From an uncultured Alphaproteobacteria bacterium (GTDB taxonomy: Bacteria; Pseudomonadota; Alphaproteobacteria; RF32; CAG-239), in the NCBI GenBank assembly GCA_944393235.1, contig CALXZJ010000004.1, positions 4,162-68,161 of the forward strand: a stretch of 64,000 nucleotides of DNA, given 5' to 3'. Under the pieces are notes generated by a model that did no database searches, was not told the origin of the DNA, and was given only the letters and a program-made list of their open reading frames with translations. A program made the position numbers and the translations under genes. Positions 55,481-59,028 of the stretch are shown one piece after another (the stretch's first letter is position 1; the number at the start of each line of letters is the position of its first letter).

Positions 55481-56164
55481 ATGGAAAACAAATTTGATGA
55501 TATCGGCTTTGCCAAACTGGATACCACGCGGCAAAACCGCACCGGCATGGCAGAAACGATTTATTGCCCCGGCAAGACCAATGAGCAGCTTTTAAGGATT
55601 CTGCGCTCATTTCACGAAAAAAACATTGCCGTTTTAGGCACACGCTGCACGGTTGAACAATTTGCCTATGTCAAAGACAAAGGCTTGCCGCTTGAATATG
55701 ACCCCACCTCGCGCGTTATCAAATTAACCGCCGCTCCGATGCATAAGTTGCCGGGCAGGGTAGCTGTTTGCACCGGCGGCACGGCGGATTTGCCGGTGGC
55801 GGAAGAAGCCGCGCAAGTGGCAGAATTTTTCGGTGCAACGGTTGATAGGCATTTTGATGTCGGCGTGACTGGCATTCATCGTTTGCTGGCTAAGGTTGAA
55901 GATATCCGTAAAGCCGATGTGATTATCGCCGTTGCCGGCATGGAAGGCGCTTTAAGCACGGTGCTTGCCGGTCTGGTGGAAGCGCCGGTGGTTTCCGTCC
56001 CCACTTCGGTCGGCTACGGCGCATCGTTTCATGGCTTATCAGCACTCTTGACAATGCTGAATTCTTGTGCCGAGGGCATTTCGGTGGTCAACATTGACAA
56101 CGGATTCGGCGCCGGCGTTTTGGCTTGCCGGATTTTACGGATGTTGGAAAGAAAACATGACTAA
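55481..56164 (+). CDS. larB: Nickel-pincer cofactor biosynthesis protein LarB (PurE-like carboxylase).
   Basis: PurE/AIR-carboxylase-like fold (TGGTADLPVAEEA...AVAGMEGALSTVLAGL); start set to ATG with GGAGG RBS; overlaps larC by 8 nt. Confidence 0.75.
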   Translation: MENKFDDIGFAKLDTTRQNRTGMAETIYCPGKTNEQLLRILRSFHEKNIAVLGTRCTVEQFAYVKDKGLPLEYDPTSRVIKLTAAPMHKLPGRVAVCTGGTADLPVAEEAAQVAEFFGATVDRHFDVGVTGIHRLLAKVEDIRKADVIIAVAGMEGALSTVLAGLVEAPVVSVPTSVGYGASFHGLSALLTMLNSCAEGISVVNIDNGFGAGVLACRILRMLERKHD

Positions 56165-57434
56165 ATATTTATATTTGGAAGGTTCCTGCGGTATCAGCGG
56201 CGATATGACGGTAGCCGCCCTTTTGGATTTGGGAGGCAATCGGCAAAAACTAGACGCCGTGCTGCAAAGCTTGCCGCTTGAGGGTTATGATTATGTTATC
56301 AGCCGCAAAAACTCATACAGCATCGCCGGATGTGATTTTGCCGTCCGCCTGCATGACACGATGCCGATGCGGGAAAGCGCCTATACGCCGGAACATCATC
56401 ATGAACATGAACACGCACATCACCATGGGCATGAACACGAGCATGACCATCACCACGAACACCGCCATTTAAAAGATGTTTACGAAATTATAGACCGCGG
56501 CACAATGACTGAAAACGCTAAAAATCTGGCTAAAAAGATTTTTCATATTGTGGCGGAGGCTGAAGCCAAAGCCCACGGCTGCGGCATTGAAGAAGTCCAT
56601 TTTCATGAGGTCGGCGCCGTAGATTCTATCATAGACATTGTCTCGGCGGCGGTTTTGCTTGATGATCTAGGCATCAAAGAGGTTATTGTTACCGGCTTGA
56701 ACGAAGGGGAGGGATTCGTCATGTGCCAACATGGGCAACTGCCGGTTCCGGTGCCGGCGGTGGCAAACATTGCAAGCGCACACGGCATTACCTTGCGCAC
56801 CGGTCATGCTAAAAGTGAGATGGTTACCCCGACCGGCATTGCTATCGCTGCCGCTGTCAAAACGAGCGACCGCCTGCCGGATGAATATAAAATCTTAAAA
56901 ATCGGCGTTGGTTTGGGCAAGCGCGATTTCGGCAGGGCTAATTTTCTGCGCGCCATGATTTTGGAAGATGCGGCACGCCCGAATAATGAATCGGAAGCCG
57001 AAAAAATTTATGTGGTAGAATGCAATATTGACGATTCGACGCCCGAGGAAATGGGCTTGGCTATGGAAAAATTGTTCGCTGTCGGCGCTAAAGATGTTCA
57101 TTTTGAAACCTGCTACATGAAAAAGAACCGTCCGGCGTATATATTGCGCGTGGTTGCCGCGGCGGCGGATTTGCCGCGGATTGAAGACGCAATTTTCCGC
57201 CACACCTCAACCATCGGTTTGCGGAAATACGTTGTGGAACGCACTTGTATGGCGCGTGAGATTGTGTCGGTTTTTATCCGCGAACAAGAGGTTAAAGTAA
57301 AAAAATGCGCCTACAAAGACATTGTGCGGTATTATCCGGAATATGAAAGCATCAAGGCCTTGTCCGATACAACCGGCGAACCTTTCCGTGAGCTTTATCA
57401 ACAAGCCTGCCGTCTGGCGGCGGAAGAAAAATAA
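56157..57434 (+). CDS. larC: Nickel insertion protein LarC.
   Basis: MTKYLYLEGSCGISGDM N-terminus and His-rich tract HHHEHEHAHHHGHEHEHDHHHEH typical of LarC. Confidence 0.85.
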   Translation: MTKYLYLEGSCGISGDMTVAALLDLGGNRQKLDAVLQSLPLEGYDYVISRKNSYSIAGCDFAVRLHDTMPMRESAYTPEHHHEHEHAHHHGHEHEHDHHHEHRHLKDVYEIIDRGTMTENAKNLAKKIFHIVAEAEAKAHGCGIEEVHFHEVGAVDSIIDIVSAAVLLDDLGIKEVIVTGLNEGEGFVMCQHGQLPVPVPAVANIASAHGITLRTGHAKSEMVTPTGIAIAAAVKTSDRLPDEYKILKIGVGLGKRDFGRANFLRAMILEDAARPNNESEAEKIYVVECNIDDSTPEEMGLAMEKLFAVGAKDVHFETCYMKKNRPAYILRVVAAAADLPRIEDAIFRHTSTIGLRKYVVERTCMAREIVSVFIREQEVKVKKCAYKDIVRYYPEYESIKALSDTTGEPFRELYQQACRLAAEEK

Positions 57435-58280
57435 ATGCTGACAAAGCTTGAGGCATATTTAAAAGAACTTTCGGCTGCCGGTGTTTCCCTGGCTTTTTCC
57501 GGCGGGGTTGACAGCGCCTTGCTGCTGGCAGTGTTGCAAAAAGTGTATCAACAAGCGCCGTTTAATTTAAAAGTTTTAACCGCCGCCACTGTTTTGCAAG
57601 ATCCGGCAGAAATCAGAGCGGCGGAACAAAAATTACAACAAAGCGGCGTGCCGTATGAGGTTTTGCGTTTCAATCCGCTGGATATGGAACAAGTGCGGCT
57701 CAACCGACCGGATAGATGTTACTGGTGCAAAAAAAATATTTTTTTGCTGTTTCGGAAAAATGCCGATGCGGCCGGTATAAAATATTTGCTTGACGGTACC
57801 AACGCAGATGATCTTAAAACTTACCGCCCCGGACTTAAAGCCTTAAAGGAGTTAGACGTTGTTTCGCCTCTGGCAACGCTGGGGATAAACAAAGCCGCCG
57901 TGCGGGAAATGTCAAAAAAACTCGGCCTTGACACGGCAGATAAACCGTCGGTGCCTTGCATGGCAACGCGTTTTGCCTATAATACGACGCTTGAGCCTGA
58001 AAAAATTTCGCAAGTTGCGGCAGGTGAAGAGATTATCAAAAAAGCTTGCCCGCAGATTCGCAATTTGAGATTGCGCGCGGATAATAACACGGCGCGGATA
58101 GAAATTGACGCGGCAGATTTTGCACTTTTGCTGCCGAAAAGGGAAGAACTCGTTACAAATTTGAAGAGCATCGGCTTTGCACGCGTCACGCTGGATTTGC
58201 AAGGTTTTCGCTCCGGCAGTCAGGATGAACGCTTAACCACCAACAAGAATGGAGAAAATAATGCAGAATTTGAAAAATAA
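57435..58280 (+). CDS. larE: ATP-dependent sacrificial sulfur transferase LarE (PP-loop).
   Basis: PP-loop SGGVDS; conserved Cys region; immediately follows larC (TAA-ATG). Confidence 0.8.
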   Translation: MLTKLEAYLKELSAAGVSLAFSGGVDSALLLAVLQKVYQQAPFNLKVLTAATVLQDPAEIRAAEQKLQQSGVPYEVLRFNPLDMEQVRLNRPDRCYWCKKNIFLLFRKNADAAGIKYLLDGTNADDLKTYRPGLKALKELDVVSPLATLGINKAAVREMSKKLGLDTADKPSVPCMATRFAYNTTLEPEKISQVAAGEEIIKKACPQIRNLRLRADNNTARIEIDAADFALLLPKREELVTNLKSIGFARVTLDLQGFRSGSQDERLTTNKNGENNAEFEK

Positions 58281-59028
58281 AGTTTTAACCGCAACACTTG
58301 CCACCGTTTTTTTGTGCGGAAGCTTGACCATGGCAAACGCGGCTCAAGCAGCAGGTATTGACAGTGCGACGCAATTGACGGTATCAGCATTACTTCTCAC
58401 CGCTTTTATCACGGCAGTTGTCCATACCGTCACCGGTCCGGATCATTATCTGCCGTTTATTGCCATTGCCAAGAGCCGAAATTATGGTTTGAAAAAAACG
58501 TTATTCTGGACTTTTGTTTGCGGCATCGGCCATATTGTCAGTGCTTTGTTGATAGCTTTGTTGTTTGTGTATTTTTCGCATTGGTTGACGGAAACCAAGT
58601 TTAACTGGATTGAAAACAATCGGGCGGATTTGGCCGCTTACGCCATGATTGGCTTGGGCGGCGCCTATCTGCTTTGGGCGGTTTGGCACCGCCTCCGCCA
58701 TAAATACGGTCATGAATATCATCATGAATTGATTAAAAGTGATAACGACAAGAATATCAGTGTTTGGGTGCTGTTCATCATTTTTGTTTTAGGACCGTGC
58801 GAGGCACTGCTACCGATATTAACGGCCTCCAGTGTGATGGGCGGCGCGGTGGTTGTCAGCACGACTTTGCTGTTTTCATTTGCCACGATTGCCACGATGA
58901 TGGTTATGGTCACAGTCGGCATGCTGGGTATAAAAGCAATGCACTTGCAAAAACTGCAGCCTTACGCGCACGAACTTGCCGGCGGCACGATTATGGCTTG
59001 CGGGCTGGCAATCGTCTTTGGCTTATAA
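58249..59028 (+). CDS. NicO/UreH-like putative nickel/cobalt transporter.
   Basis: Signal peptide then TM helices with HTVTGPDH motif (HxxxxDH typical of NicO family); overlaps larE 3' end. Confidence 0.5.
   Translation: MEKIMQNLKNKVLTATLATVFLCGSLTMANAAQAAGIDSATQLTVSALLLTAFITAVVHTVTGPDHYLPFIAIAKSRNYGLKKTLFWTFVCGIGHIVSALLIALLFVYFSHWLTETKFNWIENNRADLAAYAMIGLGGAYLLWAVWHRLRHKYGHEYHHELIKSDNDKNISVWVLFIIFVLGPCEALLPILTASSVMGGAVVVSTTLLFSFATIATMMVMVTVGMLGIKAMHLQKLQPYAHELAGGTIMACGLAIVFGL

What the first reader, a model, noticed from the sequence alone, without database searches (positions are those of the whole stretch)
55481..59028. larB-larC-larE nickel-pincer nucleotide cofactor cluster with a NicO-like transporter but no larA in the window
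These three genes are the biosynthetic set for the nickel-pincer nucleotide cofactor. Evidence is LarB (PurE-like), LarC with its His-rich tract, and LarE (PP-loop SGGVDS). A membrane protein with an HxxxGPDH NicO-type motif follows immediately. No LarA-type racemase or epimerase is present within 10 kb on either side. The cofactor presumably serves a LarA homolog of unknown specificity elsewhere in the genome. Presence in an apparently host-associated low-GC alphaproteobacterium is unusual.
Basis: established knowledge. Interest (0 to 1): 0.5.

Follow-up and report, generated by a model that had tools for sequence, protein, structure and literature searches.

The report
Nickel-pincer cofactor operon with likely clients
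A gut alphaproteobacterium carries the three genes that make the nickel-pincer cofactor, and the enzymes that probably use it (a distant relative of lactate racemase and an iron-sulfur aldo-keto reductase, both apparently exported to the periplasm) sit in the same gene block rather than elsewhere in the genome.

Summary
LarB, LarC and LarE are real and pass curated HMM cut-offs. The 6-TM protein after larE carries the reported HTVTGPDH motif but matches no Pfam or NCBIfam model. It belongs to an unannotated family (about 1,500 clusters at 50% identity) distantly like RcnA and UreH-type transporters, and it follows lar genes in every locus inspected.

"No LarA nearby" holds only for canonical LarA (PF09861). 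Two likely clients were overlooked.

1. The gene directly upstream of larB is an aldo-keto reductase with a Tat signal and two [4Fe-4S] motifs, preceded by tatA, tatC and a NapH-like polyferredoxin. AKRs next to larBCE were shown in 2026 (NphT) to use this cofactor.

The block most likely makes the cofactor and its own periplasmic clients. Cofactor binding is inferred, not shown, and a LarA elsewhere in the genome could not be excluded. I found no report of the DUF362-lar link.

The parts
49131..50210 (-). Metallo-beta-lactamase-fold protein with an N-terminal hydrophobic anchor or signal, downstream of the DUF362 gene. Possible accessory; membership in the system is uncertain.
   Evidence: PF12706 131 bits. 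A homolog lies next to DUF362 in 14 of 84 DUF362 loci.
50257..51198 (-). DUF362 protein, 313 aa, with a twin-arginine signal (KRRDFFK). It has a LarA-like fold and is a candidate nickel-pincer client.
51221..51706 (-). 161-aa small membrane protein of unknown function, first gene of the divergent unit.
   Evidence: No Pfam hit. Hydrophobic N-terminal segments. Conserved next to DUF362 in L001, L005 and L006.
51882..53162 (+). NapH-like membrane polyferredoxin: four TM helices, two CxxxCP motifs and five CxxCxxCxxxC motifs (plus a sixth, degenerate Cys motif). Putative electron-transfer partner.
   Evidence: Fer4_5 and several Fer4 families; weak NapH/MauN hits below cut-off. TM segments and Cys motifs. 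Adjacent to the AKR in most alphaproteobacterial loci.
53174..53386 (+). TatA (70 aa).
   Evidence: Translation. The ortholog in L001 is called PF02416 TatA_B_E.
53405..54145 (+). TatC.
   Evidence: PF00902 190.6 bits; TIGR00945 167/133.
54207..55445 (+). Aldo-keto reductase (residues 43-317) with a twin-arginine signal (NRRGFLM...TLA-E) and a C-terminal 2x[4Fe-4S] domain. Candidate nickel-pincer client.
   Evidence: PF00248 164.6 bits plus Fer4 families. Catalytic tetrad D83/Y88/K115/H149, S183-F-H185, P239-V-K241 and eight Cys are invariant in 85 homologs. larB lies within about 2 kb downstream (immediately adjacent in the window) in 23 of 44 alphaproteobacterial loci, and lar genes follow 1.5-3 kb downstream in Faecalibacillus. 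Precedent: NphT.
55457..56164 (+). LarB (NaAD carboxylase/hydrolase). The likely start is the ATG at 55481.
   Evidence: NF033503 283.2 bits, cut-off 175.
56157..57434 (+). LarC, a fused LarC1-LarC2 nickel-inserting cyclometallase with a His-rich tract.
   Evidence: PF01969 433.6 bits; TIGR00299 198.9/90; NF052512 130.7/50. The ATG at 56157 overlaps the larB stop.
57435..58280 (+). LarE, a PP-loop sulfur insertase of the CxxC...C ([4Fe-4S]) type.
   Evidence: TIGR00268 250.6/150. SGGVDS plus C95, C98 and C175. Motif meaning from PMC9283937.
58249..59028 (+). 6-TM His-rich membrane protein with an N-terminal signal-like helix. Putative nickel transporter from an unannotated family.
   Evidence: No Pfam or NCBIfam hit. 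Motifs HTxxGPDH, CGxGH, a His-rich loop, GPCEALLP and YAHE are conserved. AF2 pLDDT 77.5; 3+3 TM fold like RnfA, NqrE and CcdA. Weak RcnA similarity. It follows larE, or larB in one lineage, in every locus inspected.

Best explanation
Window 48.2-59.0 kb is a conserved block that makes the nickel-pincer nucleotide cofactor (NPN/NPMN) and also encodes the proteins that use it.

Biosynthesis follows established Lar biochemistry, not tested here:
- LarB converts NaAD to the dicarboxylated mononucleotide.
- LarE, of the CxxC...C [4Fe-4S] type, makes the dithio form.
- LarC, with its His-rich tract, inserts nickel.

The 6-TM His-rich membrane protein after larE most likely supplies nickel to the cytoplasm (inferred).

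The clients are not a canonical LarA. The first candidate is the Tat-signal DUF362 protein, a shortened LarA-fold protein that keeps the His-x9-Lys...His motif corresponding to LarA's catalytic His, cofactor-tethering Lys and nickel-binding His. The second candidate is the Tat-signal aldo-keto reductase fused to two [4Fe-4S] clusters, analogous to the NPMN-dependent AKR NphT.

Both would be loaded with cofactor in the cytoplasm and exported folded by the TatA/TatC encoded in the operon. In the periplasm there is no free NAD(P)H, so a bound pyridinium cofactor would take its place. The AKR's clusters could then exchange electrons with the NapH-like polyferredoxin.

Shown: gene identities, synteny, fold and motif conservation. 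Inferred: cofactor binding, export, electron path and direction of nickel transport.
For: LarB, LarC and LarE pass curated cut-offs.

The eight plus-strand genes are tightly spaced or overlapping.

AKR:
- PF00248 directly upstream of larB.
- AKRs co-occur with larBCE lacking larA in 427 cases, and NphT covalently binds NPMN through K200 with H144 on nickel.
- The window AKR keeps the tetrad. It has invariant H185 and K241 with the same 56-residue spacing as NphT H144/K200, at coordinates consistent with the HMMER alignments to 9yeb.
- The Asn of the canonical S-N-F cofactor loop is replaced: the window protein reads S-F-H.
- AKR-larB adjacency holds in 23 of 44 alphaproteobacterial loci and arises independently in Faecalibacillus, as DUF362-AKR-...-larE-larB-larC.

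DUF362:
- Same Pfam clan as LarA.
- The THFKGH169AMGGFGGSLK179...H196 stretch aligns to LarA ESH174FFAGFSGGRK184...H200.
- These residues are invariant in 27 homologs from several phyla and in the lar-operon copies.
- DUF362-larB-larC-larE-transporter operons occur in 58-60% GC lineages. A larB-transporter pair faces DUF362 in another lineage, and DUF362 lies beside larB-larE-larC in Cohaesibacter.

No LarA-like sequence occurs in the window or in any of 180 fetched loci. Twin-arginine motifs are read directly, and some DUF362 homologs carry PF10518.
Against: - No experiment or coordinate-level superposition shows that either protein binds the cofactor.
- The DUF362-LarA profile alignment is not statistically significant (hhalign E 0.39).
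- Of 80 metagenomic loci with this DUF362 subfamily, none has larB or larC within 10 kb, and two further DUF362 loci also lack them.
- Window-type DUF362 has four conserved Cys (C98, C185, C238, C240), which suggests an Fe-S or metal site instead.
- The AKR is no closer to NphT than to NAD(P)H-dependent AKRs (9yeb ranks about 30th, E 1.7e-4; absent from the top 60 with a family profile).
- The AKR's H185 and K241 are equally invariant in Firmicutes homologs, 34 of 36 of which have no lar gene nearby.
- I never saw a residue-level alignment to 9yeb.
- The rest of the genome was not searched for LarA.
Confidence: 0.55

Rival explanations
1. One reading: larBCE here supplies a canonical LarA-family racemase or epimerase encoded elsewhere in the genome. 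The neighbouring AKR, DUF362, Tat and polyferredoxin genes are functionally unrelated.
For: LarA homologs are often not next to larBCE. Only 64 kb of the genome is visible. Most loci of this DUF362 subfamily and most Firmicutes AKR-FeS loci have no lar genes nearby.
Against: DUF362 or the AKR takes the position directly upstream of larB in several unrelated lineages with differing gene orders. None of the roughly 45 lar-containing loci examined has a LarA-like gene within 8-10 kb. There is published precedent for non-LarA clients found exactly this way.
Confidence: 0.2
2. Only the AKR-[4Fe-4S] protein uses the cofactor, as an NphT-like enzyme. DUF362 is an unrelated Fe-S protein that merely shares an old fold with LarA.
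For: The AKR superfamily is experimentally validated as an NPMN host. The AKR is the gene physically fused into the lar operon here. Window-type DUF362 has four conserved Cys, and sources name it an 'uncharacterized Fe-S center protein'.
Against: In the DUF362-larBCE-transporter operons there is no AKR-FeS at all, and DUF362 is the only candidate client. In those copies two of the four Cys are replaced (T98, N185) while H169, K179 and H196 are kept.
Confidence: 0.15
3. This rival concerns one component only. The membrane protein is a nickel/cobalt exporter or resistance protein like RcnA, protecting the cell, and is not the importer that feeds LarC.
For: The only named relative with detectable similarity is the exporter RcnA. 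Distant plasmid homologs lie between CzcA-type RND pumps and heavy-metal P-type ATPases.
Against: It follows larE or larB directly in every lar locus inspected. It holds the position that a Nik-type ABC uptake system holds in the Faecalibacillus cluster. The TM1 H-x3-G-x-D-H spacing recalls uptake permeases of the HupE/UreJ type; that comparison is from memory and was not tested.
Confidence: 0.25

Closest known systems
lar operon of Lactiplantibacillus plantarum (larA-larB-larC-larD-larE with the Lar(MN)QO nickel transporter)
   Same: It has the same three biosynthetic enzymes, LarB, LarC and LarE, and a nickel transporter gene attached to the cluster.
   Different: There is no canonical larA. 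LarC is a single fused protein. LarE is the CxxC...C [4Fe-4S] type rather than the sacrificial single-Cys type. The transporter is a 6-TM secondary-type protein of an unannotated family rather than an ECF/ABC system.
LarA superfamily (DUF2088, PF09861; PDB 5HUQ, 9EIA, 7S91, 9Q3J)
   Different: It fails the PF09861 HMM and is about 110 residues shorter, so it cannot hold the full second domain with Q295 and K298. H108, D72 and R75 have no obvious equivalents. It has a twin-arginine signal and extra conserved Cys residues.
NphT, the NPMN-dependent aldo-keto reductase (PDB 9YEB; Semersky et al., Nat Chem 2026)
   Same: It is a PF00248 TIM-barrel next to larBCE without larA. The catalytic tetrad is retained. 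A conserved His lies after strand 5 and a Lys after strand 7, with identical spacing.
   Different: Sequence similarity is only about 24 bits. The window protein is 412 aa with a Tat signal and a C-terminal 2x[4Fe-4S] domain, and it sits in an operon with tatA, tatC and a membrane polyferredoxin. The paper's main text mentions none of these. NphT is a soluble 288-aa monomer doing redox-neutral hydride shuttling.
RcnA/NicO, UreH-like (Pfam DsbD_2) and HupE/UreJ nickel/cobalt permeases
   Same: It has six TM helices in a 3+3 arrangement, a His/Asp motif in TM1, a cytoplasmic His-rich loop after TM3 and a Pro-Cys motif in TM4.
   Different: The window protein matches none of the family HMMs. Only 25 of 52 distant relatives touch DsbD_2 and 6 of 52 touch the RcnA model, all weakly.
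NapG/NapH-type periplasmic Fe-S protein plus membrane quinol dehydrogenase
   Same: It pairs a four-TM polyferredoxin carrying CxxxCP motifs with a Tat-exported Fe-S protein.
   Different: Scores fall far below the NapH cut-offs (75 against 213-234 bits). The partner is an AKR fusion rather than NapG, and there is no nitrate reductase.

Membership tests
LarB/LarC/LarE nickel-pincer cofactor biosynthesis | Each protein reaches the curated NCBIfam equivalog cut-off | tested here: met
   LarB 283.2/175. LarC1 198.9/90 and LarC2 130.7/50. LarE 250.6/150.
LarB/LarC/LarE nickel-pincer cofactor biosynthesis | LarE PP-loop SGGxDS plus either a single sacrificial Cys or a CxxC...C cluster motif | tested here: met
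   SGGVDS is present, with C95-x-x-C98 and C175, which is the [4Fe-4S] type.
LarB/LarC/LarE nickel-pincer cofactor biosynthesis | The enzymes actually produce NPN | not testable with these tools
   This needs expression and a LarA activation assay or mass spectrometry.
LarA superfamily (PF09861/DUF2088) | Match to the Lar_N HMM, or detectable sequence similarity to LarA | tested here: not met
   No PF09861 hit in any ORF of 150 aa or more. tblastn with 5HUQ LarA finds nothing at E<=10. A DUF362 profile does not retrieve LarA from the PDB.
LarA superfamily (PF09861/DUF2088) | LarA three-dimensional fold | tested here: met
LarA superfamily (PF09861/DUF2088) | Cofactor-tethering Lys (K184), nickel His (H200) and catalytic His (H174) | tested here: inconclusive
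   H169, K179 and H196 align to them (H196 is one residue off in the ungapped alignment) and are invariant. The alignment is not significant and no coordinates were superposed.
LarA superfamily (PF09861/DUF2088) | Full two-domain architecture of about 420 aa with the second catalytic His (H108) and substrate residues Q295 and K298 | tested here: not met
   DUF362 is 313 aa including its signal. Only about 200 residues align structurally, and no equivalent of H108 is evident.
NphT-type NPMN-dependent aldo-keto reductases | PF00248 domain with the catalytic tetrad Asp/Tyr/Lys/His | tested here: met
   PF00248 164.6 bits. D83, Y88, K115 and H149 are invariant in 85 homologs.
NphT-type NPMN-dependent aldo-keto reductases | Encoded next to larB, larC and larE with no larA within 20 genes | tested here: met
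   It is directly upstream of larB, and there is no LarA in the 64-kb window.
NphT-type NPMN-dependent aldo-keto reductases | His/Lys motif equivalent to NphT H144 (nickel) and K200 (thioamide) | tested here: inconclusive
   H185 and K241 are invariant, have the same 56-residue spacing, and fit the 9yeb alignment coordinates. The residue-level alignment to 9yeb was never displayed.
NphT-type NPMN-dependent aldo-keto reductases | Capped cofactor cavity and covalent +450 Da adduct | not testable with these tools
   This needs model coordinates or docking, plus intact-protein mass spectrometry.
NicO/RcnA nickel-cobalt transporters (PF03824, NF007454) | Match to the family HMM | tested here: not met
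   No hit at E<=10 for the window protein or 41 close homologs. Only 6 of 52 distant relatives touch NF007454, with a best E of 4e-5.
NicO/RcnA nickel-cobalt transporters (PF03824, NF007454) | Six TM helices, a central His-rich loop and a Pro-Cys motif in the helix that follows | tested here: met
   See the alignment and model. hhalign to E. coli RcnA residues 167-213 gives probability 44% and E 2.4e-4; BLASTP gives E 0.01 at colinear positions.
UreH-like / HupE-UreJ permeases (PF13386 and relatives) | Family HMM match and the TM1 His...Asp-His signature | tested here: inconclusive
   The window protein has no hit, while 25 of 52 distant relatives hit DsbD_2 (best E 6e-7). H59-x3-G-x-D65-H66 is nearly invariant. 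Its likeness to the HupE signature is recalled from memory.

The most novel reading that the evidence does not exclude
This DUF362 subfamily is a second, LarA-related family of nickel-pincer enzymes. Here it is exported by Tat together with an NPN-loaded AKR-[4Fe-4S] protein. Nickel-pincer chemistry would then operate in the periplasm as a protein-bound substitute for NAD(P)H. It would be wired through iron-sulfur clusters and a membrane polyferredoxin to the respiratory chain. That amounts to net redox catalysis, beyond the racemisation or hydride shuttling known so far.
Probability: 0.3. Interest if true: 0.8.

Novelty: new variant of a known kind. Interest (0 to 1): 0.6.

Why it matters
Which enzymes besides LarA use the nickel-pincer cofactor is an open and active question. 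The first non-LarA clients, an AKR and an ornithine cyclodeaminase, were reported only recently.

This locus and its relatives point to two further testable candidates.
- A DUF362 subfamily with a LarA fold that forms a five-gene operon with larB, larC, larE and a transporter. I found no paper linking DUF362 to the cofactor; one paper used DUF362 only as an outgroup to LarA.
- An AKR fused to iron-sulfur clusters and sent to the periplasm.

If either binds the cofactor, the known range of nickel-pincer enzymes widens, to a large protein family of unknown function in the case of DUF362. It would also place the cofactor outside the cytoplasm for the first time and couple it to one-electron carriers. 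The transporter family is sizeable, unannotated and tightly linked to lar genes, so it is a candidate new nickel permease family.

Tried and rejected
- An exact-sequence look-up of the window's LarE found no record.
- I tried four ways to see a residue-level alignment of the AKR to NphT (9yeb). A full-length phmmer put 9yeb about 30th. Two sub-sequence queries and a family profile never brought it into the five displayed alignments. The PDB id cannot be passed to protein comparison.
- The plain 298-aa AKR near the Cohaesibacter lar genes and the 320-aa AKR beside the L175 operon are canonical (S-N-F or S-K-Y, SP[IL]xxG). I rejected them as NphT-like proxies.
- A DUF362 single sequence, family profile and motif peptide all failed to retrieve LarA from the PDB by sequence. 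The link rests on fold, clan and a non-significant alignment.
- The afdb50 fold library was unavailable, so no UniProt-named structural neighbours exist for the transporter.
- The idea that DUF362 is generally next to lar genes was rejected: 0 of 80 metagenomic loci.
- Rfam found no riboswitch or other RNA in the block, only a tRNA at 42976-43047.
- Promoter and terminator scans were not informative: terminators were at chance level, and promoter-like sites, though somewhat above chance (25 against 14.4 +/- 3.5), marked no clear operon boundary.
- A fifth TM helix in the polyferredoxin (residues about 237-262, after RRR) did not reach the hydropathy threshold, so I do not claim it.
- I suspected the window was chimeric at about 59-60 kb. 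It is simply a different strain from the GTDB representative, with 97.9% identity over the block only.

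
Full report
**The observation**

- LarB (55457 or 55481 to 56164) scores 283 bits on NF033503, cut-off 175.
- LarC scores 199/90 on TIGR00299, 131/50 on the LarC2 model and 434 bits on PF01969. Its real start is the ATG at 56157, which overlaps the larB stop. It carries the tract HHHEHEHAHHHGHEHEHDHHHEHRH.
- LarE (57435-58280) scores 251/150 on TIGR00268 and has the PP-loop SGGVDS.
- LarE also has C95-x-x-C98 and C175. This is the CxxC...C motif that binds a [4Fe-4S] cluster in Thermotoga LarE, so it is probably the catalytic type rather than the sacrificial one.

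The ORF at 58249-59028 is a membrane protein containing H59-T-V-T-G-P-D-H66.

**The membrane protein**

It matches nothing in Pfam or NCBIfam even at E<=10, and neither do 41 close homologs. It has 3,023 word-indexed homologs, none with a Pfam domain and all named hypothetical. A profile search of 1.84 billion representatives finds 1,520 clusters at E<=0.001 and 201 at 1e-30.

Evidence that it handles metal:
- Against E. coli RcnA, hhalign gives 44% probability (E 2.4e-4) and BLASTP E 0.01. Both cover the helix after the His-rich loop, at colinear positions.
- Of 52 diverse family members, 25 weakly hit Pfam DsbD_2 and 6 hit the RcnA model.
- Distant plasmid homologs lie between CzcA-type pumps and heavy-metal P-type ATPases.

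So it is a metal transporter of an unannotated family, distantly RcnA/UreH-like, and not a NicO member. It directly follows larE, or larB in one lineage, in every locus I inspected. In Faecalibacillus a Nik-type ABC system holds the corresponding position. Import of nickel for LarC is the most likely role, but the direction is inferred.

The lar genes are the distal half of an eight-gene plus-strand unit with short gaps or overlaps:
- a four-TM, NapH-like polyferredoxin (51882-53162);
- TatA (53174-53386);
- TatC (53405-54145);
- a 412-aa protein (54207-55445);
- then LarB, LarC, LarE and the transporter.

The 412-aa protein has a twin-arginine signal (MNRRGFLM...TLA-E), an aldo-keto reductase domain (PF00248, 165 bits) and two CxxCxxCxxxCP motifs.

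A 2026 paper mined larBCE clusters lacking larA. It found AKRs in 427 of them and showed that one, NphT (PDB 9YEB), binds the cofactor covalently through K200, with H144 on nickel, while keeping the AKR tetrad D47/Y52/K75/H106.

The window AKR compares with NphT as follows:
- It keeps D83, Y88, K115 and H149.
- It replaces the usual S-N-F cofactor loop with S183-F-H185.
- It has P239-V240-K241 after strand 7.
- H185 to K241 is 56 residues, the same as H144 to K200.
- The start and end coordinates of two HMMER alignments to 9yeb place H149 on H106, and S183/H185 on or next to T142/H144.

All these residues and the eight Cys are invariant in 85 homologs.

The limits are real. I never saw the residue-level alignment. 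9yeb is no closer than ordinary AKRs. The same residues are invariant in signal-less Firmicutes homologs at about 60% identity, and 34 of 36 of those have no lar gene within 10 kb.

In favour of a link, 23 of 44 loci from gut and rumen Alphaproteobacteria have larB within about 2 kb downstream of the AKR. Faecalibacillus has an independent arrangement: DUF362, AKR-FeS, a small ORF, DUF3842, LarE, LarB, LarC1, LarC2, a methyltransferase and Nik-like permeases. The paper's main text does not mention ferredoxin domains, Tat signals or transporters.

Transcribed divergently from the operon are a 161-aa membrane protein, a 313-aa DUF362 protein (50257-51198) with the signal MKRRDFFK, and an MBL-fold protein. 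DUF362 and LarA's DUF2088 share Pfam clan CL0471. A 2024 LarA paper used DUF362 as an outgroup.

I recalled the L. plantarum LarA sequence and verified it as identical to 5HUQ. Smith-Waterman and hhalign both align DUF362 THFKGH169AMGGFGGSLK179NIAIGCASGKVGKAQLH196 with LarA ESH174FFAGFSGGRK184SVLPGIASYKTIMANH200. That puts the catalytic His, the tethering Lys and (one residue off) the nickel His in register. The alignment is not significant on its own (E 0.39). H169, K179 and H196 are invariant in 27 homologs from Proteobacteria, Desulfovibrio, Deferribacteres and others.

**Context for DUF362**

Relatives of the transporter at 53-59% identity, in genomes of 58-60% GC, lie in operons DUF362-LarB-LarC-LarE-transporter with no AKR-FeS, Tat or polyferredoxin genes (L172-L178). 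Other arrangements also occur:
- One lineage has LarB-transporter facing DUF362-MerR.
- Cohaesibacter has DUF362 beside LarB-LarE-LarC.
- Among the alphaproteobacterial AKR loci, DUF362 is nearby in eight.

The lar-operon DUF362 copies keep H169, K179 and H196 but replace two of the four conserved Cys (T98, N185), which argues against a four-Cys cluster as the common function.

Against a general link, none of 80 metagenomic DUF362 loci has larB or larC nearby. Their recurring neighbours are MBL-fold proteins (14 of 84 loci), AKRs (12) and polyferredoxin-like proteins (13). Two further loci also lack lar genes. LarA homologs behave the same way, often being encoded away from larBCE, so this weakens the case without refuting it. 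No LarA-like sequence occurs in the window or in any of the 180 loci fetched.

**Organism**

The block 48160-59031 is 97.9% identical to a contig of an uncultured gut alphaproteobacterium MAG (BRZ_RN__bin68), while the flanks differ. The cluster is common in this clade, so it is not unusual there.

**Verdict**

The most likely reading (about 0.55-0.6) is a self-contained locus holding cofactor synthesis, a nickel transporter, two candidate clients and the export and electron-transfer parts they need. The clients are a LarA-fold DUF362 protein and an AKR-[4Fe-4S] protein, both apparently Tat-exported. The periplasm has no free NAD(P)H, which gives a rationale for a bound pyridinium cofactor there, but that step is inference.

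The lar genes themselves are ordinary, and the AKR link is a new member or variant of a kind published in 2026. I found no report of the DUF362-lar link, the periplasmic targeting or the transporter family in the searchable literature. These are directly testable.

Noticed in passing
window 59070-59693 (-) and 60686-61438 (-): Two ORFs have a prepilin-like N-terminus (for example GRSMVEMLGVLAIIGVLS) but only weak N_methyl hits (E 0.02 and 0.1) and no other domain. They lie just outside the conserved block, where the related MAG contig differs.
   Followed up: partly
L006 (MAG BRZ_LA__bin12), locus positions from about 11990: In this close relative (95.6% nt identity) the alignment to the window stops inside the start of larC. 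LarC, LarE and the transporter are absent from the next 9 kb. This is either a deletion or rearrangement, or an assembly join.
   Followed up: no
L050 8966-9849 and L052 (Faecalibacillus faecis and F. intestinalis): The DUF362 gene upstream of the AKR-FeS is split into two ORFs covering profile positions 1-117 and 144-200. This could be a frameshift, a pseudogene or a recoded stop. The same cluster holds a DUF3842 protein and a SAM methyltransferase between or beside the lar genes.
   Followed up: partly
window 49131-50210 (-): An MBL-fold protein with an N-terminal hydrophobic segment sits next to DUF362. The same pairing recurs in 14 of 84 DUF362 loci from unrelated metagenomes, suggesting a DUF362-MBL functional pair independent of the lar genes.
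   Followed up: partly
window 51882-53162, residues about 235-262 of the polyferredoxin: An internal [24 protein letters not shown] segment resembles a twin-arginine signal between the first ferredoxin domain and the following Cys-motif (ferredoxin-like) region. It did not reach the hydropathy threshold for a TM helix, so the sidedness of the C-terminal clusters is open.
   Followed up: partly
window 2000-6000: A low-GC stretch (31-32% against a 42% average) encodes a 1,164-aa multi-domain glycosyltransferase with a TupA-like ATP-grasp domain and an RgpF-like protein. It may be a horizontally acquired surface-polysaccharide island.
   Followed up: no
window 38754-42707 (-), 32062-34230 (-) and 14409-17198 (-): Three large ORFs (1,317, 722 and 929 aa) have no Pfam domain. 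The 929-aa one has only a low-complexity acidic-repeat hit, far below its cut-off.
   Followed up: no
window 52000-58000 against the flanks: The conserved lar/AKR/Tat block is 46.3% GC against 41.6% for the window. Its lar and transporter genes are 42-62% identical to those of 58-60% GC organisms. This is compatible with past horizontal transfer of a DUF362-lar-transporter module.
   Followed up: partly
L001 6575-7006 and L179 10234-10665: A MerR-family regulator sits beside DUF362 in a close relative and in a distant lineage but is absent from the window. It is a candidate metal-responsive regulator of the module.
   Followed up: no
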